Source of the DNA: an uncultured Clostridium sp.
GTDB lineage: Bacteria; Bacillota_I; Bacilli_A; RF39; UBA660
Direction: 5' to 3'
Length of the DNA stretch: 52,957 nucleotides
Assembly: GCA_964612605.1 (NCBI GenBank)
Contig: CAZTEJ010000002.1
Coordinates: forward strand, 1 to 52,957
The notes beneath the pieces were generated by a model, which ran no database searches, was not told where the DNA came from, and saw only the letters and a list, made by a program, of their open reading frames with translations. Shown here one piece after another: positions 36,350 through 52,957 of this stretch; positions within the stretch are counted from its first letter, which is position 1, and the number at the start of each line of letters is the position of its first letter. A program made the position numbers and the translations under genes.

Positions 36350-38695
36350 TTATTCTTCTATAATTTCATATCCTAATTTTTCGTAGGTCTTTTTCCTTTT
36401 TAGAAACATATTTCTTGTTTTTGAGTAGTTATCATCTACATAATCATAGATTATAATTTCTTTTTTATTGCTATCTTTGCGATGGAGTCTTCCTGTATAT
36501 TGAATTACTCTTGTTTTTCCTGAGATTGGCATTGTTAAGAATAATACTTCTAGTTTTGAATCGTCAAATCCTTCGCCTATGTAGGAACCGGTTGCTACTA
36601 TAATTTTGTTTTCGTTATTTTCTTGGATTTGATTTAGTTGTTCTTGATATTTAGTTAATACTTTTTTACCAATTCCTCCATAATATTTAAATATATTGTT
36701 TGTTATTTGATTTAATTTTTCGTAGATATAGTTCATTAGTTCTAGTCTTTCAGTTAGCACAAGTATATTTTTTCCTTTGTTGTATTCTGCTATGATATCT
36801 TTTATTATTTTTTCGGTTCTTATAACATCTTTTGAAATAAAATCATTTATTTCGTTTAGTTCATAGTTATTGATTTTTGGGTTTGTAAAATTAAGGTGGG
36901 TATTTTTAACTATTACTTTCATTGGAATATTTAACTCTTTATTGTATTTTAAACTATCTACTTTGTACCTTATATCTCCACATTGCATTTTAATTATTGG
37001 TGTGTGTCCGTTTTCTCTTTCTGGGGTTGCGGATATTCCATACACGTATTTGGCACTTCCTGTATTAATTGCTTGTTCATACGTATAGGCAGCTGTATGA
37101 TGGCATTCGTCTATGATAATCATTCCGTAATTTTTAGCTATATCTAGTATATTTCCGTTATTCCATAGTGATTTTATACTTGCTACGTCTATAATGTTAG
37201 TTATTTTTTTCTTTTTACTACTTATTTCTCCAACTTCGTCTATATCTAAAAATTCTTTTATTCTTTCTTTCCATTGATTTAGTAATTGTATTTTGTTTAC
37301 TAGTATTAATGTGTTTACTTGGTTTTGTTCGATCATTTTGCATCCTATAACGGTTTTGCCGAAGCCGGTTGGGGCACTTAATATTCCATTTTCGTGTTTT
37401 AATAGGTTATCTAAGGCTTTTTGTTGTTCATCTTTAAGCGTTCCTTTGAATGTTACATTAATTTGTTTTCCTGGGAATCTTTTGTCTATTTTATTTATTG
37501 TTATGTTGTTTGCTTTGCAAAGATTTTCTAAGTATTCGTATGTTCCTCTAGGTAGTTTTAGGTATTTTTCATCTTCTTTGCTACAGTCAATTACCATTGG
37601 TATATTGTGCACTGATAGTCTTAGTCTTTGGTGTTGATAAAATTCTGGGTTAGCAAATGTGGCTAATCTTCTGAAACTATTTTTTACGGATACTGTAATA
37701 TTTGTTTTATCTATGTAAATCATGTCATCTAGTATAATATTTATATTTTTTGGATATTCTATTGTTGTATTTGTTTTGTTGATTAATTCTTGGTTCATGT
37801 CTGTTATTTCGTGTCCTATATCGATTGTTTCTTTGGTTAGTTGTTTGATTTTTTCGTGCACTTCTTCTTCTGTTAGTTTTTGTATTGTGTTTAAATATTG
37901 AATTTGATTTTTTATTTGGTTAAAGTTTTTATCGATGAGAATTGTATTTCCTTGTTTTGCTGGTTCGTATTGGAATGGGAGTGCGATTAGGTTTCCATAT
38001 CCTCCTTTTGGTAATGTATCTTGGTTTGGGAACATTCTATCAAATGTTTTTATTGATAGATTGGATATTTCCATTGTTTTTGATAATAATAGACTTCCTA
38101 GTTTTCTTGCTGTAATGGCTTTTATTTTGTGAGTAAAGAATATCCATATGTGGATTCCGTTTCCTGATGAGCTTCGTTCTAGTACATAGGGTATGGTATA
38201 TTTTTCACATATTTTGATAAATGCTTGGACGTCTGTTTTTAAATCATGGGTTGTTTGTTTGTTGTCAAAATCTAGTGCAAGAAAGTAGCATGTATCATCT
38301 TCTAGTAATGGATAGATACCTATTGGGTTGTTTGTATACATGTGGTTATATATTGTTTCTTTGGTTAGTGGTTTGTTTTCTCTGTATTTGCATGTTTTGC
38401 ATTTTTTACTCATTGTTTTGTTGCATATTCCTTTTTTCCATTCGTTTGCACAGGCTGGGATATAGTATTTAATTTTTGGGTTGTTTTTATCAATTGATAT
38501 GTATGGATAGGTGTCTGTTCTTCCTTTAAAGTAATTCATAATTATTTTAATTGTTTCTTCTCTTGTGGTTGTGATTTCTGGATGGATTTGGTTTTGTTCT
38601 TGATACTGTTTTTTTAGTTCGTCTAGTTCTTGTTGGATTTTAATTAGTTCTTGTTCTTTTGTTTTAATTTGGTTTAATATTTCCGATTTGTTCAT
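36350..38695 (-). CDS. Archaeo-eukaryotic primase (AEP)-like domain fused to an SF2 DEAD/DEAH-type helicase
   Basis: AEP motifs CYFLALDFD (DxD), SSSGNGIHIWIFF (sGxGxH) and DRMFPNQD. A Cys cluster (CANEW..C..CKTCKY) is present. Helicase motifs are APTGFGKT, IIIDECHH, ISATPER and QYTGRLHR. Confidence 0.85.
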   Translation of the reverse strand: MNKSEILNQIKTKEQELIKIQQELDELKKQYQEQNQIHPEITTTREETIKIIMNYFKGRTDTYPYISIDKNNPKIKYYIPACANEWKKGICNKTMSKKCKTCKYRENKPLTKETIYNHMYTNNPIGIYPLLEDDTCYFLALDFDNKQTTHDLKTDVQAFIKICEKYTIPYVLERSSSGNGIHIWIFFTHKIKAITARKLGSLLLSKTMEISNLSIKTFDRMFPNQDTLPKGGYGNLIALPFQYEPAKQGNTILIDKNFNQIKNQIQYLNTIQKLTEEEVHEKIKQLTKETIDIGHEITDMNQELINKTNTTIEYPKNINIILDDMIYIDKTNITVSVKNSFRRLATFANPEFYQHQRLRLSVHNIPMVIDCSKEDEKYLKLPRGTYEYLENLCKANNITINKIDKRFPGKQINVTFKGTLKDEQQKALDNLLKHENGILSAPTGFGKTVIGCKMIEQNQVNTLILVNKIQLLNQWKERIKEFLDIDEVGEISSKKKKITNIIDVASIKSLWNNGNILDIAKNYGMIIIDECHHTAAYTYEQAINTGSAKYVYGISATPERENGHTPIIKMQCGDIRYKVDSLKYNKELNIPMKVIVKNTHLNFTNPKINNYELNEINDFISKDVIRTEKIIKDIIAEYNKGKNILVLTERLELMNYIYEKLNQITNNIFKYYGGIGKKVLTKYQEQLNQIQENNENKIIVATGSYIGEGFDDSKLEVLFLTMPISGKTRVIQYTGRLHRKDSNKKEIIIYDYVDDNYSKTRNMFLKRKKTYEKLGYEIIEE

Positions 38696-40077: not shown

Positions 40078-40719
40078 TTATTTTTTTAATACCAATCTTT
40101 TTGGATTAGAAGTATAATATCTATCTAACAATGATATTGCTTGTTCTTCTGTTTGCAATCTTATTTTTTCTTGAGTATTTTCTAATGAGTGTAATTGCTT
40201 CATTATTTCAAACAATTCTTCACTATTTCCAAATGGATTAATTTGAAGTGCAATTCTATATAAAAGTCCAGGATGACATGTTTGTAAACATTCCTCACTT
40301 ATTAAATTTACATCTGAGTTATTAAAACTTTTTCTGCCTCTAGAGTATGAATCTTTAAATACTTCTTCAAACATTTGACTTTCCAATGTTTTTTTATTGT
40401 ATCCTGTTAATGATGGAATCATACCTCTAAAACTTTTAGAAAATTCTATATATTCACTATCTAATGCTTCTTCTATTCTATTAAATCTATTGGTTAATCC
40501 ACAATGAACACATTCTACTTCGTTGGCCTCTTTATAATAATCTGTAGAATGATATCCAAATATTTCTTTTCCTTGTCTAAGTTTAACAAATAAGTGATTG
40601 CAATTTCTTATTTCTTCTTGTCTTTTTTGTGTGATTTCAGTAGGAGCAATTCTTAATTTTCTCATACATTGTCCAAATTCATCGTTTATTGGCAATTGTT
40701 TTATTTCTATTTCATTCAT
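40078..40719 (-). CDS. Hypothetical protein with a CxH...CxxC cluster
   Basis: 213-aa ORF with an AGGAGAAAG RBS. NCNH...ECVHCG is a possible zinc site. No family recognised. Confidence 0.5.
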   Translation of the reverse strand: MNEIEIKQLPINDEFGQCMRKLRIAPTEITQKRQEEIRNCNHLFVKLRQGKEIFGYHSTDYYKEANEVECVHCGLTNRFNRIEEALDSEYIEFSKSFRGMIPSLTGYNKKTLESQMFEEVFKDSYSRGRKSFNNSDVNLISEECLQTCHPGLLYRIALQINPFGNSEELFEIMKQLHSLENTQEKIRLQTEEQAISLLDRYYTSNPKRLVLKK

Positions 40720-41874: not shown

Positions 41875-42690
41875 CTACGAATTAGCTTCAAAGTATTCTA
41901 TATAATCTTCGATATTCCCATCTTTCTTTTTATTGCTGTTATTAACTTTCTTATATTCTAATCCAAAACTTTCAACTAAATCTTTAAATCCTACATCAAT
42001 TAATAGTTTTTCCACACTAGAATTATAATGATTTAATCTAAAAGTATAGAATAATTCTACTTGTTTCTTACTATTTTTATTGATAATTTTTGTTAATTCA
42101 TTAGCACTATCTATTTCTTGTTCTATCAACATATTTAATTTATTATGATACTTTTTAGTATTAAAAATAATATCAGGTATTTCTTTAATTTTTTCATCGG
42201 TTTTACACCAAGTACAGATGGAAACAATAAATAGAATGCACATACAACTCGCAAGTATCCATGCTAAATAAACAATAAATTCAGGACCTTCACAAACTGA
42301 TGCAGATAAAGCAATAGATAATGCCTCGCTAATAACGGAACCAATAGACCATTTTTTAGCATTTTTTGACTTTATAATCAGTTCTTCTTTTTTCTTTTGA
42401 CCTTCCTTATTATTAAAATAACAATCAGCAGATATTTTATCGCCTAATTCATTTATATTATATTTTTTTGCTATATCCATTACCTCATAAAGTCCAAGTT
42501 CTGAGACTTTTTCGTTATAATGAAGTAAAAAGTCATACTTACTACTCATTAATAAATGTTCATCTCTTTGTTTTAGTAATTCATTTGTAAATTTTGAATT
42601 AATGTAAGTATCATATGTTTCCTTACTAATTCCTATATCATCAAATAGTCTTAAGATACGCATCTTTTCTTCATGTTGAAGTTTATTCAT
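41875..42690 (-). CDS. Two-TM hypothetical protein. It is probably the 3' part of a longer gene whose 5' end (to 42862) is frameshifted and carries a TAG.
   Basis: Central hydrophobic pair SIGSVISEALSIALSASV / FIVYLAWILASCMCILFIVSI. Upstream, an RBS plus ATG at 42862 opens MDIKNKFLSRDGQYYDTLTEDSRASIAWDEK. This joins the 271-aa frame only through a 1-nt shift and a TAG at 42726..42724. Confidence 0.5.
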   Translation of the reverse strand: MNKLQHEEKMRILRLFDDIGISKETYDTYINSKFTNELLKQRDEHLLMSSKYDFLLHYNEKVSELGLYEVMDIAKKYNINELGDKISADCYFNNKEGQKKKEELIIKSKNAKKWSIGSVISEALSIALSASVCEGPEFIVYLAWILASCMCILFIVSICTWCKTDEKIKEIPDIIFNTKKYHNKLNMLIEQEIDSANELTKIINKNSKKQVELFYTFRLNHYNSSVEKLLIDVGFKDLVESFGLEYKKVNNSNKKKDGNIEDYIEYFEANS

Positions 42691-42874: not shown

Positions 42875-44170
42875 CTAACTTTTTAGTATTTCATTAATTG
42901 AATTAACCCTTTTAAGATTATTATCATTATATAAATATGGTAATTCCTCTTTAATTAACTCAATTAATTCTAAAATTTCTTCTGGTTTATTATTAATACT
43001 ATAATAATAATAATTTTTACTACCAGCAGGAATGCTCAATGTTCCATACTGTTTAATGGTATGATAACTTTTTGTTCTAGCTTCTGCATATTCTTCTTGT
43101 GAATAAACAAATTTGTTTTTATTTATCTTGTCTAATTGTTTGTAGTCCTCTATAGGAACTTTTGAAATTATATCCTTGAAAACCTCATATATAAACCTAG
43201 TATCAGGGTAATACTTATCATTTAATTTGTTTCTTTCTCTAATATTTTCAGCAATTCTATTCATTGTGTCAAAATATTCTTTTTCTATATTTATATCGTT
43301 CATTTTTATTAAGTTTATAAATAGTATTCTTAATAATTTTTGATTTTTTTCAAAGAAAGATTTAACATAATCATCCTTTTTATCTTTTAATAAACCATCT
43401 ATGAATTCTTTTATAATTTTTTTATTCTTGTTCCATACTTGTAATGTAAGTTTTTTTCCTTCAGTTGTTATAGGTATATAATTAATATCAAATTTTTCAT
43501 TAAAATATAAACCTGAAAAACTATTAATATATTCATTTATTGTAAGTGATAGGTTATTATCGTAAGATTTATAACTACATGGTTCATATACATAATTAAT
43601 TAAGTCTTGATATGTAAATTTTAAGTAATGTTCTTCATCTGATATTGGATCATCTTTACTTAAACTTAGATATAAATAAGTTTTGGTATAAGAATTGTAA
43701 TCAGCTAATTTTTCTAAATCTATTCTATAATTTTTACATTGTTCATCATGTTCTAAACTATCAAGTTTTGCTTCTAATGCTATAAGATATTGCTCTTTTT
43801 TCTCATTTTCTATAACATCGAACTTTATAAGTAAATCAATTCGCCCACTTGGTAACTTCTCTTGAATTTTTATCTCAATATTGGATAAATCACTACTTGA
43901 CATACAAATATTTTTAATATGTGAAAATTTATTATCTATATCTTTGCTTGCGATTAGTTCGCAAAGTAGTTGTAAAGGATAATCACCTAAACCATATGGA
44001 TTGTTTTCATTTAATAATGAGGCTAAAAAATTAGTATGTACATCTTCAAATCTAAAGAAATTTATTTGTTCCAATATACTTGTTTTACCATAATATTTTT
44101 CAAATTCAATCCATTCTTTACTATTTTTTAGTTCGATCAAATTGTTAAACATATCCATTAAGTTAGTCAC
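42875..44170 (-). CDS. PD-(D/E)XK nuclease family protein
   Basis: FEDVHTNFLASLLNENNPYGLGDYPLQLL, then GRIDLLI...YLIALEAKL (D...ExK) and EHDEQCKNY. Confidence 0.65.
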   Translation of the reverse strand: MTNLMDMFNNLIELKNSKEWIEFEKYYGKTSILEQINFFRFEDVHTNFLASLLNENNPYGLGDYPLQLLCELIASKDIDNKFSHIKNICMSSSDLSNIEIKIQEKLPSGRIDLLIKFDVIENEKKEQYLIALEAKLDSLEHDEQCKNYRIDLEKLADYNSYTKTYLYLSLSKDDPISDEEHYLKFTYQDLINYVYEPCSYKSYDNNLSLTINEYINSFSGLYFNEKFDINYIPITTEGKKLTLQVWNKNKKIIKEFIDGLLKDKKDDYVKSFFEKNQKLLRILFINLIKMNDINIEKEYFDTMNRIAENIRERNKLNDKYYPDTRFIYEVFKDIISKVPIEDYKQLDKINKNKFVYSQEEYAEARTKSYHTIKQYGTLSIPAGSKNYYYYSINNKPEEILELIELIKEELPYLYNDNNLKRVNSINEILKS

Positions 44171-44578: not shown

Positions 44579-44649
44579 TGATAATAATGACTATTTCTAA
44601 ATTTATGCACATAAAATTACTTTATAATCTTCAAACCTATAAATTCAAC

Positions 44650-44672
44650 AAAAAGTGGAGCCTTTCGGCTCC
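44650..44672 (-). terminator. GC-rich GNRA-loop terminator ending the defence operon
   Basis: The minus strand reads GGAGCC-GAAA-GGCTCC followed by ACTTTTT. It is conspicuously GC-rich against an AT-rich background. Confidence 0.7.
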
Positions 44673-44794
44673 TTCAGGGGGCTATTATATTAAAAAAGAG
44701 GATTGTTTAAAATCCCCGTAATATCGACATATAACTCATATAGAGTTTAATAAAATTTAATCAAAAATTGATAAATTTATCTTAATTTGATGGG

Positions 44795-44831
44795 TAGCTG
44801 ATGGGTAGAAATGCTTATCAGCTAATTTTTT
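44795..44831 (+). terminator. Plus-strand-oriented intrinsic terminator directly behind the TIR gene
   Basis: Stem tagctgat/atcagcta with a 14-nt loop, followed by A+TTTTTT on the plus strand. It overlaps a tandem 9-nt repeat gatgggtag (44789..44797 and 44800..44808). Confidence 0.5.
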
Positions 44832-44864
44832 ATAATGACAATATGACATTATATAGATATGCAG

Positions 44865-45374
44865 TTATATCTCATTATACTCTTTCAATCTTCTTGAATT
44901 ATCAATCAATTGATTTCTCTCTGTTCTTGCATAAAATGCATCATTTATAATTTGAATTAATTGATTTTCATTTTGTGGATAATTATATATTTTAGCATAT
45001 CCAGATTTATAATTATCCAAAAGTCTAGCTGGAATAACTGTATTACAAAAATCACATCCAGGTAAAAATATTCCAACTAATCCACTTCTTTTATTATTTT
45101 GATCATTTCTTAATGTAGAAGCTATTTCCCAATCTACATATTTTCTTTTATATGTTTCATTGCCAATCATAACAATAGTAACTGTAGAATCCGACAGATA
45201 ATTTTCGCGTATAACCCTCATTGTATAATCGACATTATTACTGTTTATAGATGTTCCATACTCATTTCCTATAATTCTTCTTATAAAAACATTATTATTA
45301 GAATAATTATTTACAAAATTTGATACTACTTTATCATCTTTATGATGATATGATATAAAAACTTTATGTTGCAT
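44865..45374 (-). CDS. TIR-like protein (DUF1863/ThsB-type)
   Basis: HKVFISYHHKDD at the N-terminus, STVTIVMIGNETYKRKYVDWEIASTL (candidate catalytic Glu in WEI). 169 aa. Its ATG lies 1 nt after the upstream stop and its RBS is inside the upstream gene. Confidence 0.75.
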   Translation of the reverse strand: MQHKVFISYHHKDDKVVSNFVNNYSNNNVFIRRIIGNEYGTSINSNNVDYTMRVIRENYLSDSTVTIVMIGNETYKRKYVDWEIASTLRNDQNNKRSGLVGIFLPGCDFCNTVIPARLLDNYKSGYAKIYNYPQNENQLIQIINDAFYARTERNQLIDNSRRLKEYNEI

Positions 45375-45375
45375 T

Positions 45376-45981
45376 TTATTTTCTCCTTATTTCATCAAGT
45401 TTATTAGTTAATTCAACCACTTTAATATTTACTTTCCACATATCTTCAACAATTTCTTTATATTTAGGATACCTCTTTTGAATTTCTTGTGGTTCTTCAT
45501 CAGAATTTTTTTTCAATTCTTTTTCATACCACTTTCTATATCTAGCTTGATATTTTGTCAAATGGCTTCTTAAATCAGTATTTAATACCTCAATTAAAAG
45601 GTTAACTAATTTATTTACTTCCTCATCGTTTTTTCCAGCCAAATCCTTTATAATTGTCCTAAACTGATTATAAATAGAATACCATGAGTCGTAAACTTCA
45701 ACAATAACATCATTTTCTGGATCAAAAGGTAATGCTAATTTTCTTGTAATTAATTCAGTCCATGCTTTATGAGCTATTATTTTTACTTCCTTATTACATC
45801 CAATATCGACGGTAACTCCTTTAATACAAATTTGTGATACTTTTATATCTTTTAATTTTTTAACTTTATTTATTATCTTAATTATGACTAAAACAAACAA
45901 AATAATTAATGGTAACAAAATTATAACATTATCTAAGCTAATTGTTATTTTATATTTTGATAAATATTTCAATATTTCCAT
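45376..45981 (-). CDS. Single-pass membrane protein with an unrecognised helical C-terminal domain
   Basis: TM helix VIILLPLIILFVLVIIKII. Strong RBS GGGAGGTG before the ATG at 45981 (the ORF track starts at 45996). No family recognised for AHKAWTELITRKLALPFDPENDVIVEVYDSWYSIYNQF. Confidence 0.6.
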   Translation of the reverse strand: MEILKYLSKYKITISLDNVIILLPLIILFVLVIIKIINKVKKLKDIKVSQICIKGVTVDIGCNKEVKIIAHKAWTELITRKLALPFDPENDVIVEVYDSWYSIYNQFRTIIKDLAGKNDEEVNKLVNLLIEVLNTDLRSHLTKYQARYRKWYEKELKKNSDEEPQEIQKRYPKYKEIVEDMWKVNIKVVELTNKLDEIRRK

Positions 45982-46002
45982 ACCAACACCTCCCAATTTT
46001 AA

Positions 46003-47796
46003 CTATAAAGAATAATAATACTCTTTTATTTTTTTTGCCATTAATATTCTACGTTGTTTTAAGAATTCATCAAAATCTTCAACAGTCATATTATCAAATC
46101 CTTCTGGAATACAATTAAGTTTTAAGTTTGATTTTAATATTTCCTTATCAACAATTGACCCGATAGTTGCAATTCCATTATTACATTGATTATTCACTTC
46201 TAACATGTAAGTATTTGGAGCTTTATTAGTTATTTGCAAATTTATTTCAGTTTGAATTAATGCAAAATTTGCAATTTGATTGTAAATGCTTTTATTGTTT
46301 TTACCATTCTTTTGTAAATAATCTTTAGGAAATATATGATGTACATCTCCTCTACCTTCAACTAATGTTCTGACCTTCATATCTTTAGATAAGAATGCAC
46401 TATCATTTAAAGCAATTTGAGCTATAAGATAAGTTTTCCAATAAGGGGAACTAGCTACTGGAGTATTAAAGTTTTCTACTAAAATACTATCCCAGAATGC
46501 ATCACCTAATCTTCTGTCTAACTCATCATTAATATATTGAATTAAATCTTCTGCTTCATTTAATCTTCTTATATCCAAGTCAAATTGAGATTCTGGAGAA
46601 GAAGTATATCTTTGAGTAATAATTGACATTATTACCCATCTCTTAACTAATTTTTCAATTACATCAGGAACTACATTCCTTTCTCTTAATAATAAGAATA
46701 AAATATATCCAAAATTTAATACATTTTGTGATCTAATTAATGAATCGTCAATTATACCTGCAGATTTTAAAATCATTACATATCTTTCAAAGTTAGTTTG
46801 ACTAACAAATGCTTTTACGCCATCATATAATTTTTTATAACTATCTTCTACAATATCTTCTCTATATTCTCTTGTTTCAAAGTCACGACCAGATAGTAAG
46901 CTTACTAAATCTTGTAATTTACCTCTTTTAAACTTATATGTGAATGCTACTCTTAAAACATCTACATAACTTGGTAAATATAAATCTTCATTTTTATCTT
47001 TTATCCATGTTATCTTATTAAAAATATCCTTAGTACTAAATGCAGAATCATTATTTTTTATATTATCAAAATCTACAGGTGTCTTAGCAAAGTGACAGAA
47101 ATAATCAATAGTTTTTCTAATATCATTACCATCATATTTTTCGTTAACACTAATCTTACTCATTGCAAAATCTGCTTGAGATAAAACTACACCAGCTGAA
47201 TTTATTCTAACAAATATTTCTGTTACTGCTTCAATATCTAACATTGAACCTAACTCAATACGACCAATCATTATATTTTTAATAGATTGTAATTTTGTTA
47301 TTTTTTTACTTACTTCATTTGCATCAATATTAAATTTATCTGCATAACTTCTTACAAATTCAAAAGCATTAAATCCAGATTTCATTACTTCTGCTATATC
47401 TGGTATCCACTCTTCTTGTTTTTCAATTGCGGGATTACTTGTTTGAAACTCTTCTGTTTGGAGATTAAATGCAATTTTTATTCTTTTCTTTTTATAATCA
47501 CTATCTAGTACTTCTTTGCCAAGTAATGAAGCTGTTAAAGCTGTAATTCTTTGCTGCCCATCTATCAATATTTGTTTTCCTTCAGACGAAGAGCCATCTT
47601 TTAATTTTACATCAGGACTTTTCCATGTGATTATGTAACCAACAGGGTACTCTCTATATAAAGAATCAATTAAATCTCTAACTTTTGTTGTATCCCATAC
47701 AAATGGTCTTTGTATTTCTGGAATCGCTATAGTTCCATCACTAACATATCCAAGTAACGTTTCAACACTAACATTATTTACATCAAATTTTGCCAT
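46003..47796 (-). CDS. GmrSD-family protein (DUF262 + DUF1524 His-Me finger), a putative type IV restriction enzyme
   Basis: IPEIQRPFVWDTTKVRDLIDSLYREYPVG and LIDGQQRITAL (DUF262). The C-terminal GDVHHIFPKDYL...NQIANFALIQTEIN fits DUF1524. Confidence 0.85.
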   Translation of the reverse strand: MAKFDVNNVSVETLLGYVSDGTIAIPEIQRPFVWDTTKVRDLIDSLYREYPVGYIITWKSPDVKLKDGSSSEGKQILIDGQQRITALTASLLGKEVLDSDYKKKRIKIAFNLQTEEFQTSNPAIEKQEEWIPDIAEVMKSGFNAFEFVRSYADKFNIDANEVSKKITKLQSIKNIMIGRIELGSMLDIEAVTEIFVRINSAGVVLSQADFAMSKISVNEKYDGNDIRKTIDYFCHFAKTPVDFDNIKNNDSAFSTKDIFNKITWIKDKNEDLYLPSYVDVLRVAFTYKFKRGKLQDLVSLLSGRDFETREYREDIVEDSYKKLYDGVKAFVSQTNFERYVMILKSAGIIDDSLIRSQNVLNFGYILFLLLRERNVVPDVIEKLVKRWVIMSIITQRYTSSPESQFDLDIRRLNEAEDLIQYINDELDRRLGDAFWDSILVENFNTPVASSPYWKTYLIAQIALNDSAFLSKDMKVRTLVEGRGDVHHIFPKDYLQKNGKNNKSIYNQIANFALIQTEINLQITNKAPNTYMLEVNNQCNNGIATIGSIVDKEILKSNLKLNCIPEGFDNMTVEDFDEFLKQRRILMAKKIKEYYYSL

Positions 47797-47811
47797 TTTA
47801 TCACCACTTTC

Positions 47812-50800
47812 CTACATTTCTTTTATTGAATTTTCAATATGTTCAATTTCTTCATTAGTTAAGTCATACTTTAAATATAATTGTTGATCTATTTCTTTAA
47901 TAGACTTATTCCAATCTACATCAGAGTTTTCAGTGAAATCTTGAATAGGAACTAATTCAAAAGTTTTTGAGGTAGCATCTTGACTACTCTTTAATAAGCT
48001 ATGTAAGAATCTTACAAATTTTGTTTTCATATATTTTTCTAGATTTTTAGCCGAATCTTCATCAAGTCCTAAATCGGCACCTACCACTAAATATGACTCC
48101 GTACATATTTCATTTGGCTTTCCTATAAACGAATTCAAGTTATCATCACTAAGCTCCGTACCAATATTATCAGCACGTGGAATAAATACTTTCCATTTGT
48201 TAATCCATTCTAAATGCGTAATTACATATTTTTTTTCAACAAAACCCTTTTGCCTTCCTTTTGCATAGCATACAACAGGACTTAACATATTATCAATAGA
48301 ATTTTTATAGTTTTCCGTTTTAGAAAAATAACCTCTTAACCCAAATGGTCTTAATGAAGAAATATAATTAGCTAAACTATTGAAATCTAAATTATTTACT
48401 TTTTCAATAATTGTGAATGCTGAACCATCACGTATAAAAACATCTTTATTTTCAAATTTCATAGGTCTTCTAACATCGTTTATTATACTATTATTTTCAT
48501 ATGTAATAACATTAACTAAATCATTAATATTGTTATAGTCCAAGTCTCTTAAAAAATAACATACGCCACCCCTAATATTTGTGTTTGGGAAAATAGAATC
48601 GGGAGTTAAACAATCATGTAATTCCTTCACGTGAAAATCATTTAACATTCCATTTCTAAACTCATCTAACCCTTTTCCTCCTACAAACCATCTAGTTGGA
48701 ATTATTAGTGAAGTAAACCTTGAACTTAATTGATTTGCAATTGCAACAAAATATTGATAAATTGGTTTTGCACTAGCTTGTGCACCACCATCTGCTTCTT
48801 GATATGGGGGATTCCCAACAACAATATCAAACTTCATTTTTCCATCTCCTTCCTTGTAAAATAAATTATCTTCTAATAAGATTTCAGACATCTTTTTATT
48901 TTGTAGAAGATATCCTTTTATTCTATTTAAATCCAAATTACCACCATTTCTAATATCCAGCAAATCATATGAAGTAAAATTTGTAGCAATATTATCGATA
49001 TTCAAATTCAAAATTTCATATATTTTTCTTGTGAATTCGTATGCTATTTTAGATGTCGGTATAGAATATAAACAATTGCTAATCAATTCTTCTTTTACAC
49101 CTAATTCTTTTAATTTAGAATATAATGCTATAGTAAATTCTCCTTCTTTACTAGCAATATCTAATATTTTTGAACCCGAAATTACTACTTTTACTATATC
49201 ACTATCTAGTATCATTGATATCATTTGTTTGCAAACTTTATTAGGTGTAATTATTTCTGAATCTGATAGTTTATCAAACTTATTTATAGCAACTAATGCT
49301 CTCTCTATCTTATCTAAAGATTCATCATTCGATAATTTGTTAATATTTTGTATTTTATAATCTAATTGACTTAAAACAAATGGGTCAATATTTTCATGTA
49401 TTAATTTTAATATATTTATATCTAGTTCTAAATTCTTTAAAATTCTTCGATTGTTAATATCTTTACAAGTATCAATAATATTTTTTAAAGAATGTAATTC
49501 ACTACTAGATAAGAAAGAATAAAATAAAATTCTCACATAATAAGTTTTAAATTTATTAACAATAATTTTCTTTAAATCATTATCATTAGAATTATTTGTT
49601 GATGAATTACTTGGAGAATTATTGTCTTGATTTTCTGATTCTTCATCAAATTCAAACGAAAGTTCTTCAAAGTCATCAGTGTCATCATCAGTATTGGTTA
49701 ATTTTAAGCCACCTTTTGAACCAAGCTCAGCCTGTTTTAATATTATTTCTCTTATTTCATCAATATTTAGCAACTTAAAATCAACTGGTAAATCATTAGA
49801 TTCGTCAAGGACGCTTCTTGAATTTGAATAATTACTTATGTAATTCATAATATCTATTGCTGTTATTTGTCTAAGTTTATTACTATCAAAAACAATAATT
49901 GGCGAAATATTTAATTCATTTTCTAATCTATCTTTCAATTTATCATTTCCATTATTTTCTGTATTAACATTATAAATTAAAGACTTGGTTTCTTGCATTA
50001 TAAACATCCTATTTGGATTAAAATCAACAAGTAATGTTTGTGGTTTTTTATTATATTTAATAATATCACCATCTTCAGATATATAATCTTTAACATATTG
50101 ATTTTGTAATCTAAATATAGCCTGATCATACTCTTGTGGAGATGATGTATCTTTTAAATAAATCATTGTATCCCATTCTTCAACAGTGCTTCCAGTAAGC
50201 ATCCTATTGACTGTTAAAGTTATTGTTTTTTTATCGTTCTTTTCACAATTTTTTATTGCATATTTTACATCATTTATACTTTTATAAGAGTTTGACTCAT
50301 CCACTCCTGATATATTAATAATTTCATAATCATTTAAATTCTTAAATTTATCTTTATTATCTTTAATTAATTTTTCAAAAGAATCACATGAAGCACGAAA
50401 TGGTAATACTACGACAATATGCCTACACATTTTTCCTTCTTTTATTTTATCGAAGTTTAAAAAGCCAAGTACTTCATCATCATTCTTGCTACCATCAATA
50501 ACTTCTAATAAATCTAATATTTCTGACTCATATATAAATTTTTTATGTTTTCCTTCAGAATCTTTTGTTATAGACATAGGTCTAAATAATTCAGAAAAAG
50601 CATATGTCACTCCTGAGTTCTTTAATTCTATCAATTTTTGTCTAATTGATTTATTTGGATTAAATGCAAACCTAATCATTTGTGGAAATCCATAATACGG
50701 ATTTTCCCATTCTTTATATGAATCATCTAATATATGTTCTTTATCCCAATCTAATTGAGCTTTTACAATATCAGAAAATTGATAAAAACCGATTATATCT

Positions 50801-51840
50801 TCTTTTTCAAATTCAGAACTCATCAAAATTCTATATGGAGTACCTGACAAGTGAATTCTAACTTTGGATTTTAATACTTTAACAATATCATCAGCGTCAT
50901 CAAAATTTATAATTTCATCTTCTCTAGTATCTCTTACATCTCTTAATACAGCTCCGAAGTTCTCAGCTCTTGCACCAAAGTGTGTTTCATCAATTAATAA
51001 CAAATCTATTTGATTATTGAATAATTCTTTATGTTTTTCTTTTATTTTTGTTCCTTGTAAATCTTGTAATGTTAAAAACATAACTACTTTTCTGCCTGTC
51101 TCTAACTTATGTTTTATTATATCGTTATCCCTTAAAAGTTGATCGTTCTCAATAAAATCATAATCTTTAAAATTATCAGCACTTTGTACAGTTTTCTTCC
51201 ATTCTTCTTTTACATCAGCTTTTGCCGAAACAATTAAAACAACATTTGCATTCATTTCTAAAGCACAACACATCGATGTAAAACTTTTACCGAATCTCAT
51301 TACTGCATATAGTAATAAATTTGTTCTACCTGCTTCATATGCTTTTTTAAAGTTTTCTACAACTTCCTTTTGATTAGGTCTTAAATTCCACATACCAGTA
51401 GAAGCATATTCAGTTATTACTCTTAAACTATCTTTAGCATTGTAAAACTGGTATTTCATAAGATTTTCGTCGAAATCATTCTTTATGTCTTTGATAGCCT
51501 CGTCAATATCAACTATAGAAGTATCTTTAAAAAACTCATTTGAAAAATAAATTCCTTCATCTATATCGGATGATTTTAATCTCGTTTTTTGCAAATTATG
51601 TTCTAAAAATTGATGTACTGAATAATCTCTAAAAAATATATCATCTGATACCGTAGCTTTAGTATCATATTTTTTCTCAAGTTCAGGGTAATACTTTTTC
51701 CATTCATCAAGTCTTATGGATACGGGTCTATAGGTATCACCAACCTTTATATAATTTGGTATTGTATTAGTAGTAAAAGCATATATATGTGGTTCAACAC
51801 GTCCAACAATAATTTTATCTAACAAACTTAAATCTCTCAT
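47812..51840 (-). CDS. 1342-aa fusion: T5orf172/GIY-YIG-like N-domain + SF2 (ResIII-type) helicase + gamma-class N6-adenine DNA methyltransferase + a C-terminal putative target-recognition region
   Basis: N-domain: HIYAFTTNTIPNYIKVGDTYRPVSIRLDEW...VHQFLE...NEFF. Helicase: MRFGKSFT, LLIDETHFG, LSGTPYR, QAIFRLQN. Acidic/Asn-rich linker: DDDTDDFEELSFEFDEESENQDNN. MTase: ITPNKVCKQM, ILDIASKEGEF, FDIVVGNPPYQ. Confidence 0.8.
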   Translation of the reverse strand: MRDLSLLDKIIVGRVEPHIYAFTTNTIPNYIKVGDTYRPVSIRLDEWKKYYPELEKKYDTKATVSDDIFFRDYSVHQFLEHNLQKTRLKSSDIDEGIYFSNEFFKDTSIVDIDEAIKDIKNDFDENLMKYQFYNAKDSLRVITEYASTGMWNLRPNQKEVVENFKKAYEAGRTNLLLYAVMRFGKSFTSMCCALEMNANVVLIVSAKADVKEEWKKTVQSADNFKDYDFIENDQLLRDNDIIKHKLETGRKVVMFLTLQDLQGTKIKEKHKELFNNQIDLLLIDETHFGARAENFGAVLRDVRDTREDEIINFDDADDIVKVLKSKVRIHLSGTPYRILMSSEFEKEDIIGFYQFSDIVKAQLDWDKEHILDDSYKEWENPYYGFPQMIRFAFNPNKSIRQKLIELKNSGVTYAFSELFRPMSITKDSEGKHKKFIYESEILDLLEVIDGSKNDDEVLGFLNFDKIKEGKMCRHIVVVLPFRASCDSFEKLIKDNKDKFKNLNDYEIINISGVDESNSYKSINDVKYAIKNCEKNDKKTITLTVNRMLTGSTVEEWDTMIYLKDTSSPQEYDQAIFRLQNQYVKDYISEDGDIIKYNKKPQTLLVDFNPNRMFIMQETKSLIYNVNTENNGNDKLKDRLENELNISPIIVFDSNKLRQITAIDIMNYISNYSNSRSVLDESNDLPVDFKLLNIDEIREIILKQAELGSKGGLKLTNTDDDTDDFEELSFEFDEESENQDNNSPSNSSTNNSNDNDLKKIIVNKFKTYYVRILFYSFLSSSELHSLKNIIDTCKDINNRRILKNLELDINILKLIHENIDPFVLSQLDYKIQNINKLSNDESLDKIERALVAINKFDKLSDSEIITPNKVCKQMISMILDSDIVKVVISGSKILDIASKEGEFTIALYSKLKELGVKEELISNCLYSIPTSKIAYEFTRKIYEILNLNIDNIATNFTSYDLLDIRNGGNLDLNRIKGYLLQNKKMSEILLEDNLFYKEGDGKMKFDIVVGNPPYQEADGGAQASAKPIYQYFVAIANQLSSRFTSLIIPTRWFVGGKGLDEFRNGMLNDFHVKELHDCLTPDSIFPNTNIRGGVCYFLRDLDYNNINDLVNVITYENNSIINDVRRPMKFENKDVFIRDGSAFTIIEKVNNLDFNSLANYISSLRPFGLRGYFSKTENYKNSIDNMLSPVVCYAKGRQKGFVEKKYVITHLEWINKWKVFIPRADNIGTELSDDNLNSFIGKPNEICTESYLVVGADLGLDEDSAKNLEKYMKTKFVRFLHSLLKSSQDATSKTFELVPIQDFTENSDVDWNKSIKEIDQQLYLKYDLTNEEIEHIENSIKEM

Positions 51841-51854
51841 GTGTACCTCACTTT

Positions 51855-52829
51855 CTATTTAATTAAAGAAATAAACTTTATACTTCTATTTGTTTTCCAA
51901 TTCATTACTTTGCAATAAATTCCATTATGATTTTTATTTTTATTTTTTTTACAGCCTAAGCACTCTTCAATGTGTTCAATTTCGCCAAACAATGTTAGCT
52001 CAACTTTTTTCTCATTTTTACAACTATTTGGAATAACAAATTTCAAACCATCCATTTGCCAAATATTCCAACTAATAATTTCTGCCACTTTTTCAACTAA
52101 TTCTAATCCCGGCTTTTTACTAAATTTATCTTTATAATAATCAATAAATGTGTATAGCAAATTTTCTCTTGCAATTAATACATTATCTCCTTGCCAATCA
52201 TATCCATAAACACTTTTCATTGCTTTGATAGACCATTCTACCCATTCGGACTCATCATCTATATTTTCAGAAACTATTCTTAGTTTTCTATCTAATAATC
52301 CAATTCTATCTTTTATTTTTATTGTTTTACCTGTCACTGAATCATATCTACTGACAAGATAAGGGGCTTCTCCACATGAAATTTCCAATCTAGTACTGTT
52401 AATATAATCTTGCCATGATTTATTTTCCGGAAAAGTTATTTTATCTTCAATGGTTTCCCAGCTATCTTTATCAGATTTATTAAACACATTTTTTCTTCCA
52501 AACCAAGCATCATCTACTAAATTATTTTGGTTGTTACATACCCACGACGGGGTGAAAACTTCGGCATTTTCTTTTATTCTCTTATTTTTTTCTTCATTTG
52601 TTTTTTTTGATCTAGGTTTTATTATTTCTCCATAATTACCAGTTATTTTTTCGATAGTTATTTCATCACTAAAACCAAAACCATGGCCATATTGTTGGTA
52701 ATTATCTGTTGCCCAAATTATATTCTTTTTACTGCTATGATCAAATAAAAGAATATTTAAAATTTGCATGTCAATTAGTAATAAATTTTCTTCTTTTATA
52801 TCAACTAACTCTCTAAACAAAGTTTTCAC
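51855..52829 (-). CDS. Methyltransferase-like protein lacking a (D/N/S)PP(Y/F/W) motif, with a C-terminal Cys cluster
   Basis: AEVFTPSWVCNNQNN (motif X-like), RLEISCGEAPYLVSRYD (motif I-like position) and YGYDWQGDNVLIAREN, but no NPPY-type motif anywhere. C-terminal C-x18-C-x2-C-x12-C. The start may be the TTG at 52820, since the GTG at 52829 lies inside the RBS GGGAGGTG. Confidence 0.6.
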   Translation of the reverse strand: MKTLFRELVDIKEENLLLIDMQILNILLFDHSSKKNIIWATDNYQQYGHGFGFSDEITIEKITGNYGEIIKPRSKKTNEEKNKRIKENAEVFTPSWVCNNQNNLVDDAWFGRKNVFNKSDKDSWETIEDKITFPENKSWQDYINSTRLEISCGEAPYLVSRYDSVTGKTIKIKDRIGLLDRKLRIVSENIDDESEWVEWSIKAMKSVYGYDWQGDNVLIARENLLYTFIDYYKDKFSKKPGLELVEKVAEIISWNIWQMDGLKFVIPNSCKNEKKVELTLFGEIEHIEECLGCKKNKNKNHNGIYCKVMNWKTNRSIKFISLIK

Positions 52830-52853
52830 CTCCCAACTGTTTTTTATAATTAT

Positions 52854-52957
52854 TTAAATATCTTTTGGTAATTTATCATAATCATATTTTTCTTCAACTG
52901 TCTCTAATTCATCAAAAGACCATTTAATATCTTCTATAGCTTTATCTATTGTATATA
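52854..52957 (-). CDS. 3' end of an unidentified gene truncated by the right edge, the first visible gene of the operon
   Basis: The frame reads ...YTIDKAIEDIKWSFDELETVEEKYDYDKLPKDI-stop. The stop lies 24 nt upstream of the next gene's start. Confidence 0.5.
   Translation of the reverse strand, partial: YTIDKAIEDIKWSFDELETVEEKYDYDKLPKDI

What the first reader, a model, noticed from the sequence alone, without database searches (positions are those of the whole stretch)
44865..52957. Intact, tightly coupled minus-strand operon of at least six genes joining methylation, helicase, type IV restriction and TIR modules
The genes at 52957->44865 are separated by only 24, 14, 15, 21 and 1 nt, each with its own Shine-Dalgarno sequence. 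The first clear minus-strand terminator is a GC-rich hairpin at 44650-44672.

The order is: unknown partial gene, MTase-like protein without motif IV, T5orf172-like/helicase/N6A-MTase fusion, GmrSD, 1-TM protein, ThsB-like TIR.

Each module alone resembles known defence parts. I do not recognise this combination as a named system. The spacing argues for co-expression rather than chance adjacency. Every other conflict gene in the island is decayed, yet this operon has no interruption over about 8 kb. That suggests selection is maintaining it. The operon continues beyond the window.
Basis: partly seen in the sequence, partly recalled or inferred. Interest (0 to 1): 0.85.

Follow-up and report, generated by a model that had tools for sequence, protein, structure and literature searches.

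The report
Three known defence systems in one operon
The tightly packed six-gene operon is real and intact, but it is three separate, already described anti-phage systems (a restriction-modification pair, a GmrSD type IV restriction enzyme and a type VI Thoeris pair) strung together on a mobile element, not one new combined system.

Summary
Five complete minus-strand genes plus the 3' end of a sixth are packed with 1-33 nt gaps, each has its own ribosome-binding site, and a terminator sits at 44672-44657.

The operon resolves into three modules.

1. An XRE regulator, a 321/324-aa M-like protein and a 1342-aa T5orf172-helicase-MTase fusion. The last two are an RM pair conserved in 23 of 29 fetched loci across several phyla, without the other genes. 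PADLOC matches them full length to REBASE-derived Type IIG and MTase models.
2. A GmrSD type IV enzyme related to BrxU.
3. The "1-TM protein + TIR" pair, which is type VI Thoeris (ThsG + ThsB). It matches the experimentally verified system of Yirmiya et al. 2025 at 36% and 39% identity (E 6e-38 and 6e-30). The pair recurs in dozens of genomes without RM or GmrSD.

A 93%-identical element carries type II Thoeris in the same slot. Another relative carries a Type III RM in the RM slot. The breakpoints fall exactly at gene junctions.

The operon has only one further gene beyond the window, the 173-180-aa regulator. It is cargo of an integrase/relaxase element. This is an ordinary defence-island mosaic, and interest is low to moderate.

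The parts
52854..52957 (-). 3' end (33 codons plus stop) of the first gene of the operon, an XRE-family HTH regulator. It is 173-180 aa in relatives and is probably the controller of at least the RM module.
   Evidence: The translated tail matches L012, L001 and L024 at 75-94%. The full-length L012 homologue has Pfam HTH_3 at 1.5e-16. PADLOC gives weak hits to RM control proteins and capH. Divergent genes lie upstream in L012 and L192.
51855..52829 (-). M-like partner protein (324 aa from GTG; probably 321 aa from TTG 52820). It carries the motifs EVFTP and E.SCGEAPYL, and WNIWQ where NPPY would be expected. A conserved C-terminal Cys/His cluster is also present. Its role is unknown; it could be a second-strand methylase or a non-catalytic specificity or assembly subunit.
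   Evidence: PADLOC MTase_II PDLC03390, 402 bits, full length. No Pfam, NCBIfam or PDB match. At least 8000 relatives, named 'restriction endonuclease subunit M' by NCBI. It sits immediately upstream of the fusion gene in 22 of the 23 pair-bearing loci (L019 has one intervening gene). Invariant residues are listed.
47812..51840 (-). 1342-aa single-chain RM enzyme. Domains in order: N-terminal T5orf172/GIY-YIG-like nuclease (about residues 1-110), SF2 ResIII helicase/translocase (Walker A GKS, DETH), an acidic low-complexity linker, an Eco57I-type gamma N6-adenine MTase (GNPPYQ 1009-1014), and a variable C-terminal region that is probably the target-recognition domain.
   Evidence: Pfam ResIII 1.2e-12 and Eco57I 1.9e-22. 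PADLOC REase_MTase_IIG PDLC03626, 1552 bits, full length. Invariant motifs. T5orf172 hit in 14 of 21 homologous N-termini. Weak profile match to DrdV 7lo5.
46003..47796 (-). GmrSD-family type IV (modification-dependent) restriction endonuclease, 597 aa. The DUF262 NTPase domain has IPEIQRPFVW and DGQQR. The C-terminal part has a His-Me finger motif, DVHHIFPK...N.
   Evidence: Pfam GmrSD_N 1.8e-32. PADLOC HEC-05 6e-29. PDB BrxU 7p9k at E 1e-6, of similar length. The motifs were read in the translation.
45376..45981 (-). ThsG, the effector of type VI Thoeris. It is 201 aa: one N-terminal TM helix, a beta hairpin and a four-helix cytoplasmic domain with invariant E76, R80, D91, W100, R108, R138, H140, R149, W151 and Q165.
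   Evidence: 36% identity, E 6e-38, full length, to the verified ThsG on scaffold Ga0209396_1000232 (L113:3513-4157). Family alignment A1. AF2 model with pLDDT 88. Adjacent to a TIR gene in 55 of 78 GTDB loci, plus 11 more two genes away, and in 50 of 50 JGI loci.
44865..45374 (-). ThsB, the TIR-domain sensor and signal synthase of type VI Thoeris (169 aa). The conserved VDWEI glutamate is present.
   Evidence: Pfam ThsB_TIR 3.3e-17. 39% identity, E 6e-30, to the verified type VI ThsB Ga0209396_100023224. TIRs next to ThsG-family genes are up to 69% identical to that ThsB, and it is the best reference for 65 of 71 of them.
44638..44812 (-). Conserved 3' flank of the operon. It contains the intrinsic terminator (44672-44657 plus T run) and a 13-bp-stem palindrome (44795-44824). 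The palindrome is followed by a T run only on the + strand, so it would serve convergent transcription.
   Evidence: Terminator scan. 92% identical to L192:18205-18382, although the Thoeris genes between differ.

Best explanation
The region is the cargo operon of an integrative mobilisable element (tyrosine integrase, Mob_Pre relaxase, AAA_25 protein). One XRE-type regulator gene is followed by three autonomous anti-phage systems placed head to tail.

(1) An ATP-dependent restriction-modification pair.
- The 1342-aa enzyme recognises a site through its C-terminal region. It methylates adenine with its gamma-class NPPY domain on host DNA.
- On unmodified DNA it translocates with its SF2 motor and cuts with its N-terminal T5orf172/GIY-YIG-like nuclease.
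- The always-present 321-aa M-like partner supplies a second, unidentified function.

(2) A GmrSD type IV enzyme. It cuts hypermodified phage DNA that escapes system 1.

(3) A type VI Thoeris.
- The ThsB TIR protein senses infection and makes 2'cADPR from NAD+.
- The membrane-anchored ThsG binds the signal, oligomerises and damages the membrane, which stops growth or kills the cell before phage release.

What is shown here: gene structure, family assignments, modular distribution and the cassette-swap breakpoints. What is inferred from relatives: the biochemical steps, a shared transcript, and complementarity of the three layers.
For: Family assignments:
- The fusion protein and its partner match PADLOC models full length (1552 and 402 bits).
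- Pfam finds ResIII, Eco57I, GmrSD_N and ThsB_TIR.
- T5orf172 is recovered via homologues.
- GmrSD matches BrxU.
- The ThsG and ThsB genes match the experimentally verified type VI Thoeris scaffold. Its defence activity and 2'cADPR signal are reported in bioRxiv 10.64898/2025.12.03.692087.

Modularity:
- The RM pair is conserved in 23 of 29 loci across Bacilli, Clostridia, Bacteroidota, Gastranaerophilales, Saccharibacteria and Fibrobacteraceae. Three further loci carry a split version.
- What follows the pair varies: Gabija, PifA/QatA-like, another DUF262 enzyme, Ppl/mad3-like.
- The ThsG+TIR pair lies on the same strand in 55 of 78 GTDB loci, plus 11 within two genes, in both gene orders, in bacteria and archaea. 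GmrSD is present in only 4 of those loci and the RM pair in 2, all from one lineage.

Cassette swaps:
- L192 is 93% identical to the window from 52957 to 45999, which is 4 nt past the GmrSD stop. It then carries ThsA-Macro + ThsB (type II Thoeris). Homology resumes at 44812-44638.
- L030 and L032 carry a Type III Mod/Res in front of the same GmrSD-ThsG-ThsB block. Their homology to the window begins exactly at the GmrSD start codon, 47796.

Mobile-element context: integrase, Mob_Pre and AAA_25 sit upstream of the regulator gene, next to recG.
Against: - No transcript or phenotype data exist. A single promoter is assumed only because the gaps are short and no terminator-like site lies inside the operon on the minus strand.
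- The same six-gene order persists at about 82% nucleotide identity in two other species-level MAGs, L001 and L012. The combination therefore has some stability. The RM pair also has a GmrSD or DUF262 neighbour in two further lineages, L018 and L016. Some functional synergy cannot be excluded.
- Pfam DUF6650, the label used for ThsG, does not hit the window protein. It does not hit the verified TM-bearing ThsG either.
- The M-like partner has no supported fold assignment.
- A related three-gene cluster in B. subtilis, DnmA-YeeB-YeeC, showed no anti-phage activity (PMC9973331).
Confidence: 0.85

Rival explanations
1. The six genes are one integrated, so far unnamed defence system whose methylation, helicase, type IV and TIR modules depend on each other.
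For: Gaps of 1-33 nt with individual ribosome-binding sites and a single terminator. The identical gene order is kept at about 82% nucleotide identity in L001 and L012.
Against: Each module occurs alone in many unrelated genomes. A 93%-identical element has a different Thoeris type in the last slot, and other relatives have a Type III RM in the first slot, with breakpoints at gene junctions. Each module matches a system shown or annotated to work on its own.
Confidence: 0.04
2. The modules are autonomous in mechanism but coupled in regulation or function. A single XRE-controlled transcript sets their dosage. One layer may also feed another, for example DNA ends or stalled complexes made by the RM or GmrSD enzymes acting as the trigger sensed by ThsB.
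For: One regulator gene sits at the head, and no internal minus-strand terminator-like site was found. GmrSD stays attached to a Thoeris cassette while both the RM type and the Thoeris type vary. The RM pair has a GmrSD or DUF262 neighbour in lineages other than the window's (L018, L016).
Against: ThsG+ThsB pairs work and occur without any RM or GmrSD neighbour. The co-occurrence is confined to a few lineages and is compatible with ordinary defence-island clustering. No data bear on the trigger.
Confidence: 0.1
3. The 'RM pair' is not a working restriction system. It is a relic or an epigenetic/regulatory methylase, as proposed for B. subtilis DnmA-YeeB-YeeC, and the M-like protein is an inactive pseudo-enzyme. 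This concerns only that sub-part of the operon.
For: The M-like protein lacks NPPY and a GxG motif. The MTase domain of the fusion has an unusual motif I, LDIASKEGEF. The B. subtilis analogue gave no phage protection (PMC9973331).
Against: All catalytic motifs of the nuclease, motor and MTase are invariant across 17 homologues at 49-63% identity. The pair is full length in 20 or more lineages and sits in defence islands on mobile elements. Vibrio homologues of DnmA/YeeB were reported to affect phage sensitivity (cited in PMC9973331).
Confidence: 0.12

Closest known systems
Type VI Thoeris (ThsB + ThsG, 'DUF6650 and TM' subtype), Yirmiya et al., bioRxiv 10.64898/2025.12.03.692087
   Same: A two-gene unit made of a ThsB-type TIR protein and a protein of about 200-215 aa with an N-terminal TM helix and a helical domain. 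Both window proteins align full length with the verified Gammaproteobacteria-scaffold system (39% and 36% identity). All family-invariant residues are present.
   Different: The gene order here is ThsG then ThsB. This is the minority order: 14 against 41 in GTDB loci and 5 against 44 in JGI loci. The host is a low-GC gut Bacilli-type organism. The pair is embedded as the last two genes of a longer operon. The 2'cADPR signal is assumed, not measured.
GmrSD / BrxU type IV restriction enzymes (PDB 7p9k)
   Same: Similar length (597 against 587 aa). DUF262 N-terminal NTPase motifs (QR, DGQQR) and a C-terminal His-Me finger motif. Like BrxU, it sits next to a methylation-based system.
   Different: Only the N-terminal motifs align significantly with BrxU (E 1e-6). 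Pfam's C-terminal model was not hit. Substrate preference is unknown.
[quoted passage not shown]
   Same: One polypeptide with nuclease, SF2 helicase-like motor, gamma-class adenine MTase and a C-terminal recognition region, in that order. This predicts ATP-driven translocation and cleavage away from the site.
   Different: The nuclease is T5orf172/GIY-YIG-like, not Mrr. There is no detectable sequence similarity to the solved Type ISP structures. An obligatory separate M-like partner gene is present.
DnmA(YeeA)-YeeB-YeeC clusters: MmeI-family MTase + SF2 helicase + T5orf172 protein (PMC9973331)
   Same: The same three activities. Distant relatives of the window enzyme (L027-L029) are likewise split into an MTase gene and a T5orf172-helicase gene.
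   Different: Here the three are fused in the order nuclease-helicase-MTase, and a fourth M-like protein is added. Direct homology to YeeA/B/C was not tested.
Defence islands and hotspots on mobile elements with complementary layers, for example BREX + BrxU on pEFER
   Same: A methylation-based system, a modification-dependent nuclease and an abortive-infection system lie side by side on a mobilisable element, with modules exchanged between relatives.
   Different: The modules here are packed into what looks like a single transcription unit. The exchanges occurred precisely at intergenic junctions.

Membership tests
Type VI Thoeris | A TIR-domain ThsB protein related to experimentally verified type VI ThsB proteins | tested here: met
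   Pfam ThsB_TIR 3.3e-17. 39% identity, E 6e-30, to Ga0209396_100023224, and 37%, E 2e-19, to E. coli ACN001 ThsB. The VDWEI glutamate aligns.
Type VI Thoeris | An adjacent ThsG effector homologous to a verified ThsG | tested here: met
   36% identity, E 6e-38, over the full length to L113:3513-4157, the gene next to the verified ThsB on scaffold Ga0209396_1000232. The family profile also matches the Priestia plasmid neighbour at hhalign probability 97%.
Type VI Thoeris | Effector carries Pfam DUF6650 (PF20355) | tested here: inconclusive
   No DUF6650 hit for the window protein or for 36 relatives at E<=1. The verified TM-bearing ThsG gives no hit either, so the test does not discriminate here.
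Type VI Thoeris | The TIR and the effector form a conserved two-gene unit | tested here: met
   55 of 78 GTDB loci have them adjacent on the same strand, plus 11 within two genes. 50 of 50 JGI loci that contain the effector have them adjacent.
Type VI Thoeris | Phage-induced 2'cADPR production, effector activation by 2'cADPR, and phage protection | not testable with these tools
   Reported for relatives in bioRxiv 10.64898/2025.12.03.692087.
GmrSD type IV restriction | N-terminal DUF262 NTPase domain with QR and DGQQR motifs | tested here: met
   Pfam GmrSD_N 1.8e-32, covering 5-197 of 199 profile positions. The motifs align with BrxU.
GmrSD type IV restriction | C-terminal DUF1524 His-Me finger nuclease | tested here: inconclusive
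   The motif RGDVHHIFPK...N...N was read in the translation. No Pfam C-terminal model was reported at E<=0.01.
GmrSD type IV restriction | Cleavage restricted to modified (hmC / glucosyl-hmC) DNA | not testable with these tools
   -
REBASE-type 'Type IIG' RM enzyme with companion MTase (PADLOC PDLC03626 + PDLC03390) | Full-length match to the family models, with the two genes adjacent | tested here: met
   1552 bits over 4-1342 of the protein, and 402 bits over 9-324. The two genes are directly adjacent in 22 of the 23 pair-bearing loci, and separated by one gene in L019.
Type ISP RM (LlaGI/LlaBIII) | Mrr-family PD-(D/E)xK nuclease at the N-terminus | tested here: not met
   The N-terminus belongs to the T5orf172/GIY-YIG-like family: 14 of 21 homologues hit PF10544, best E 2.7e-14. 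Invariant residues are IY, K.G.T.R, R, E and E.
Type ISP RM (LlaGI/LlaBIII) | Single polypeptide sufficient on its own, with no separate subunit | tested here: not met
   The M-like gene is present in all 23 loci carrying the fused enzyme, and a shorter relative is present in the split versions.
Type ISP RM (LlaGI/LlaBIII) | Sequence homology to solved Type ISP enzymes | tested here: not met
   No PDB hit by phmmer. The profile search gives only DrdV 7lo5 at E 0.0065.
Catalytically competent N6-adenine MTase (the 321/324-aa protein) | Motif IV (D/N/S)PP(Y/F/W) and a glycine-rich AdoMet motif I | tested here: not met
   The invariant residues are W-N-I-W-Q-M-D-G and C-G-E-x-P-Y-L instead. The fold search was uninformative because the model had pLDDT 62. 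Similarity to the MTase domain of the fusion is limited to motif X, hhalign E 0.14.
A single multi-gene defence system (all six genes) | Components co-occur across unrelated lineages | tested here: not met
   The full set occurs only in one lineage: the window, L001/L031 and L012/L033. L024 is cut before the later genes. Modules are swapped in L192, L030, L032 and L018.

The most novel reading that the evidence does not exclude
Two readings are not excluded.

(a) The RM-like pair is an uncharacterised class of ATP-dependent restriction enzyme. A very abundant NPPY-less MTase paralogue (at least 8000 relatives, no Pfam family, conserved Cys/His cluster) would be an obligatory non-catalytic partner of a T5orf172-helicase-MTase fusion, for example as a specificity, loading or licensing subunit.

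(b) The XRE-headed operon of this integrative mobilisable element serves as a scaffold in which whole defence cassettes are exchanged at gene junctions under common control. The exchanges seen are ISP-like RM for Type III RM, and Thoeris VI for Thoeris II.
Probability: 0.3. Interest if true: 0.5.

Novelty: new member of a known kind. Interest (0 to 1): 0.25.

Why it matters
The case shows that tight operon spacing alone does not make a new system. Neighbourhood comparison split this locus cleanly into three known modules.

Useful by-products:
- A clear natural example of exact cassette exchange on near-identical mobile elements of gut Bacilli: type VI against type II Thoeris, and ISP-like against Type III RM.
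- Evidence that TM-bearing ThsG effectors form a large family that current Pfam and PADLOC v2 models do not detect. There are 292 loci among GTDB species representatives, including archaea.
- A pointer to a very common, uncharacterised M-like partner protein of a helicase-MTase-T5orf172 restriction enzyme.

Tried and rejected
- An exact look-up of the 1342-aa protein found no contig. The context was recovered instead through homologues.
- NCBIfam gave nothing for any of the proteins.
- PADLOC PDC-M50 was considered for the TM+TIR pair because the TIR weakly hits PDC-M50B. No member of the TM family hits any PADLOC v2 model, so it was dropped.
- SLATT or Macro identity of the TM protein: no Pfam support. 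The AF2 model is a TM helix plus a four-helix bundle, with no significant PDB neighbour.
- The E. coli plasmid copy of type VI Thoeris (L110) is frameshifted and could not serve as a reference. The verified JGI scaffold was fetched instead.
- The fold of the M-like protein: AF2 pLDDT was only 62, Foldseek found nothing below E 0.3, and profile searches against PDB and against the fusion's MTase domain were non-significant.
- Type ISP membership was rejected (see the membership test).
- Promoter scanning is uninformative in this AT-rich DNA.
- Direct comparison with B. subtilis YeeA/B/C, and a DefenseFinder run with the new Thoeris models, could not be done with the tools at hand.

Full report
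**Observation.**
- 44865-45374 (169 aa)
- 45376-45996/45981 (206/201 aa)
- 46003-47796 (597 aa)
- 47812-51840 (1342 aa)
- 51855-52829 (324 aa)

The tail of a sixth gene ends at 52854. Reading the junctions confirms gaps of 14, 15, 21 and 1 nt. Each gap holds a purine-rich ribosome-binding motif: GTGAGGT, AAGTGGTGA, GGGAGGTG and AAGGAGA.

The M-like gene more probably starts at TTG 52820, because GGGAGGTG lies 7 nt upstream and all database relatives are 321 aa. That makes the first gap 33 nt. The terminator scan finds GGAGCC-GAAA-GGCTCC plus a T run at 44672-44657 on the minus strand, and no minus-strand terminator-like site inside the operon. Promoter-like matches are at chance level in this 25-29% G+C DNA. 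Co-transcription is plausible but untested.

**What lies beyond the window.** Relatives of the 1342-aa protein were fetched from species-representative genomes. A 98%-identical copy of the M-like protein was traced to a 122-kb contig (L192). In L012, L001 and L192 the partial gene is a 173-180-aa XRE-family HTH protein (Pfam HTH_3 1.5e-16). It gives weak PADLOC hits to RM control proteins.

It is the first gene of the operon. Upstream, on the other strand, lie two small genes, an AAA_25 protein, a Mob_Pre relaxase and a tyrosine integrase next to recG. The operon therefore has exactly six genes and is cargo of an integrative mobilisable element.

**Module 1, the RM pair.**
- Domains of the 1342-aa protein. 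It has Pfam ResIII (152-337) and Eco57I MTase (922-1084). It matches PADLOC's REBASE-derived REase_MTase_IIG model end to end at 1552 bits.
- Conserved motifs. In an alignment of 17 homologues at 49-63% identity, several motifs are invariant: the N-terminal IY...K.G.T.R...R..E...E pattern, the Walker A GKS, DETH, and GNPPYQ.
- T5orf172. Pfam T5orf172 is hit by 14 of 21 homologous N-termini (best E 2.7e-14), though not by the window copy itself.
- The M-like protein. It matches PADLOC MTase_II PDLC03390 full length at 402 bits. It has at least 8000 relatives, which NCBI names 'restriction endonuclease subunit M', and no Pfam family. It keeps EVFTP and E.SCGEAPYL, but has an invariant WNIWQMDG where NPPY would be.
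- Its fold could not be settled. The AF2 model had pLDDT 62 and Foldseek found nothing. Similarity to the fusion's MTase domain is limited to motif X.
- Distribution. The two genes are adjacent in 22 of the 23 pair-bearing loci among the 29 fetched (one intervening gene in L019). These come from Bacilli, Clostridia, Bacteroidota, Gastranaerophilales, Saccharibacteria and Fibrobacteraceae. In three distant loci the fusion is split into an MTase gene and a T5orf172-helicase gene.

The closest characterised analogues are the Type ISP enzymes and the DnmA-YeeB-YeeC clusters. Membership of Type ISP fails on nuclease type, on the extra subunit and on sequence similarity.

**Module 2, GmrSD.** The 597-aa protein has Pfam GmrSD_N at 1.8e-32 and PADLOC HEC-05 at 6e-29. 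It resembles BrxU (7p9k) in length and in its N-terminal motifs. A DVHHIFPK...N motif is visible near the C-terminus.

Next to the RM pair it occurs only in the window's own lineage and in L018. In L018 the RM proteins are 49-69% identical to the window's but GmrSD is 71% identical. A different DUF262 enzyme follows the pair in L016. Elsewhere the slot holds Gabija, PifA/QatA-like or Ppl/mad3-like genes, or unknown genes.

**Module 3, the '1-TM protein + TIR' pair.**
- Size of the family. The 201-aa protein has 137 detectable relatives and 292 loci among species-representative genomes, archaea included. It has strongly conserved polar residues, but no Pfam or PADLOC v2 match.
- Structure. The AF2 model (pLDDT 88) shows a TM helix, a beta hairpin and a four-helix bundle, with no significant PDB neighbour.
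- Linkage to a TIR gene. In 78 GTDB loci a ThsB-type TIR gene is immediately adjacent on the same strand in 55 and within two genes in 11 more. Both gene orders occur. GmrSD is present in only 4 of the 80 loci and the RM pair in 2, all from the window's lineage.
- Literature. A search found Yirmiya et al. (bioRxiv 10.64898/2025.12.03.692087). They define type VI Thoeris as ThsB plus ThsG ('DUF6650', some with N-terminal TM helices). They verified it against phages and showed that it signals through 2'cADPR.
- Direct comparison. The scaffold of one verified system, Ga0209396_1000232, was fetched as L113. Its ThsG (L113:3513-4157, 214 aa) is 36% identical to the window protein over the full length (E 6e-38). 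Its ThsB is 39% identical to the window TIR (E 6e-30).
- Supporting comparisons. TIRs beside ThsG-family genes are up to 69% identical to that ThsB. 50 of 80 metagenome loci picked by ThsB similarity carry the ThsG-family gene next door.
- The DUF6650 label. The Pfam DUF6650 model hits neither the window protein nor the verified ThsG, so that label is not a usable test here.

The pair is type VI Thoeris.

**Mosaic structure.** DNA comparison shows three patterns.
- L192 is 93% identical to the window from 52957 to 45999, which is 4 nt past the GmrSD stop codon. It then carries ThsA-Macro + ThsB, a type II Thoeris (PADLOC 4.6e-87 and 8.3e-72), where the window has ThsG + ThsB. Homology resumes at 44812-44638, the terminator region.
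- L030 and L032 carry Type III Mod and Res genes (REase_III 1e-240) in front of the same GmrSD-ThsG-ThsB block. Their homology to the window starts exactly at the GmrSD start codon, 47796.
- L001 and L012 keep all six genes at about 82% identity.

So the nearer relative differs in Thoeris type while a more distant one agrees. That is the signature of recombinational cassette exchange between autonomous modules.

**Mechanism.**
- Shown here: the gene structure, intact catalytic motifs, family assignments, modular distribution, swap breakpoints and mobile-element context.
- Inferred from characterised relatives: site-specific adenine methylation and ATP-driven translocation and cleavage by the fusion enzyme; cleavage of hypermodified DNA by GmrSD; and infection-triggered 2'cADPR synthesis by ThsB that activates membrane damage by oligomeric ThsG.
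- Inferred from layout: one XRE-controlled transcript that gives layered protection. The layers act on unmodified DNA, on modified DNA, and by abortive infection as a backstop.

**Verdict.** The locus is a new instance of a familiar thing, a defence-island mosaic on a mobile element.

Residual novelty lies in two places. One is the uncharacterised M-like partner of the T5orf172-helicase-MTase enzyme. The other is the tidy cassette exchange within an operon-like scaffold. Interest is 0.25.

Noticed in passing
window 36350-38695 (-): An uninterrupted 781-aa protein with Pfam AEP-TOTE (TOTE conflict-system primase, 3e-80) plus ResIII/DEAD/Helicase_C.
   Followed up: partly
window 42875-44170 (-), 41875-42690 (-), 40078-40719 (-): A 431-aa PDDEXK_4 nuclease-family protein matches PADLOC candidate PDC-S26 (2e-22), followed by 271-aa and 213-aa proteins with no family match. 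This may be a further defence module just downstream of the operon's terminator. The stretches 38.7-40.0 kb and 40.7-41.9 kb have only short ORFs and may hold decayed genes.
   Followed up: partly
L012:17148-18095, also L001, L030, L032: In these relatives a 315-aa minus-strand gene with no Pfam hit sits between ThsB and the terminator. About 140 bp corresponding to window 44723-44861 is present on both sides of it, which looks like an insertion with a flanking duplication. The window and L192 lack it.
   Followed up: no
L064, L053, L044, L049, L060, L062 and others: Several ThsG loci carry two TIR genes. In L064 and L053 the extra one resembles the Bacillus-type type VI ThsB cluster (about 40% identity). 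These are multi-sensor Thoeris VI operons.
   Followed up: no
L122, L124, L128, L131, L141, L163 (JGI loci): Close relatives of the verified type VI ThsB are followed by a gene of about 154-163 aa instead of the TM-bearing ThsG. This could be a TM-less ThsG or a different effector. It was not identified.
   Followed up: no
L018:9384-12541: After RM pair + GmrSD, this Clostridia MAG has co-directional 800-aa and 249-aa genes with no Pfam or PADLOC match apart from one weak ApeA-like hit. They are candidate unknown defence genes in the slot that Thoeris occupies in the window.
   Followed up: partly
L110 (E. coli plasmid p13TMH22-1, NZ_CP019257.1:~440-1700): A copy of the E. coli ACN001-type type VI Thoeris in which both thsG and thsB are broken by frameshifts. 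The annotation shows only a 92-aa TIR fragment.
   Followed up: partly
L113:3513-4157 and alignment A1: The experimentally verified TM-bearing ThsG and all 37 sampled relatives escape Pfam (including DUF6650) and PADLOC-DB v2. Standard annotation pipelines will therefore miss this Thoeris subtype.
   Followed up: yes
window 47812-51840, residues about 715-760: An acidic and Asn/Ser-rich low-complexity linker (…DDDTDDFEELSFEFDEESENQDNNSPSNSSTNNSNDND…) lies between the helicase and MTase parts of the fusion. It is poorly conserved among homologues.
   Followed up: no
L024 (CAVKYO010000082.1): A contig 96% identical to the window's regulator, M-like and fusion genes is binned as Acidaminococcus fermentans. 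All other close relatives are Bacilli or 'Tenericutes' MAGs. This is either a mis-binned contig or recent transfer of the element.
   Followed up: no
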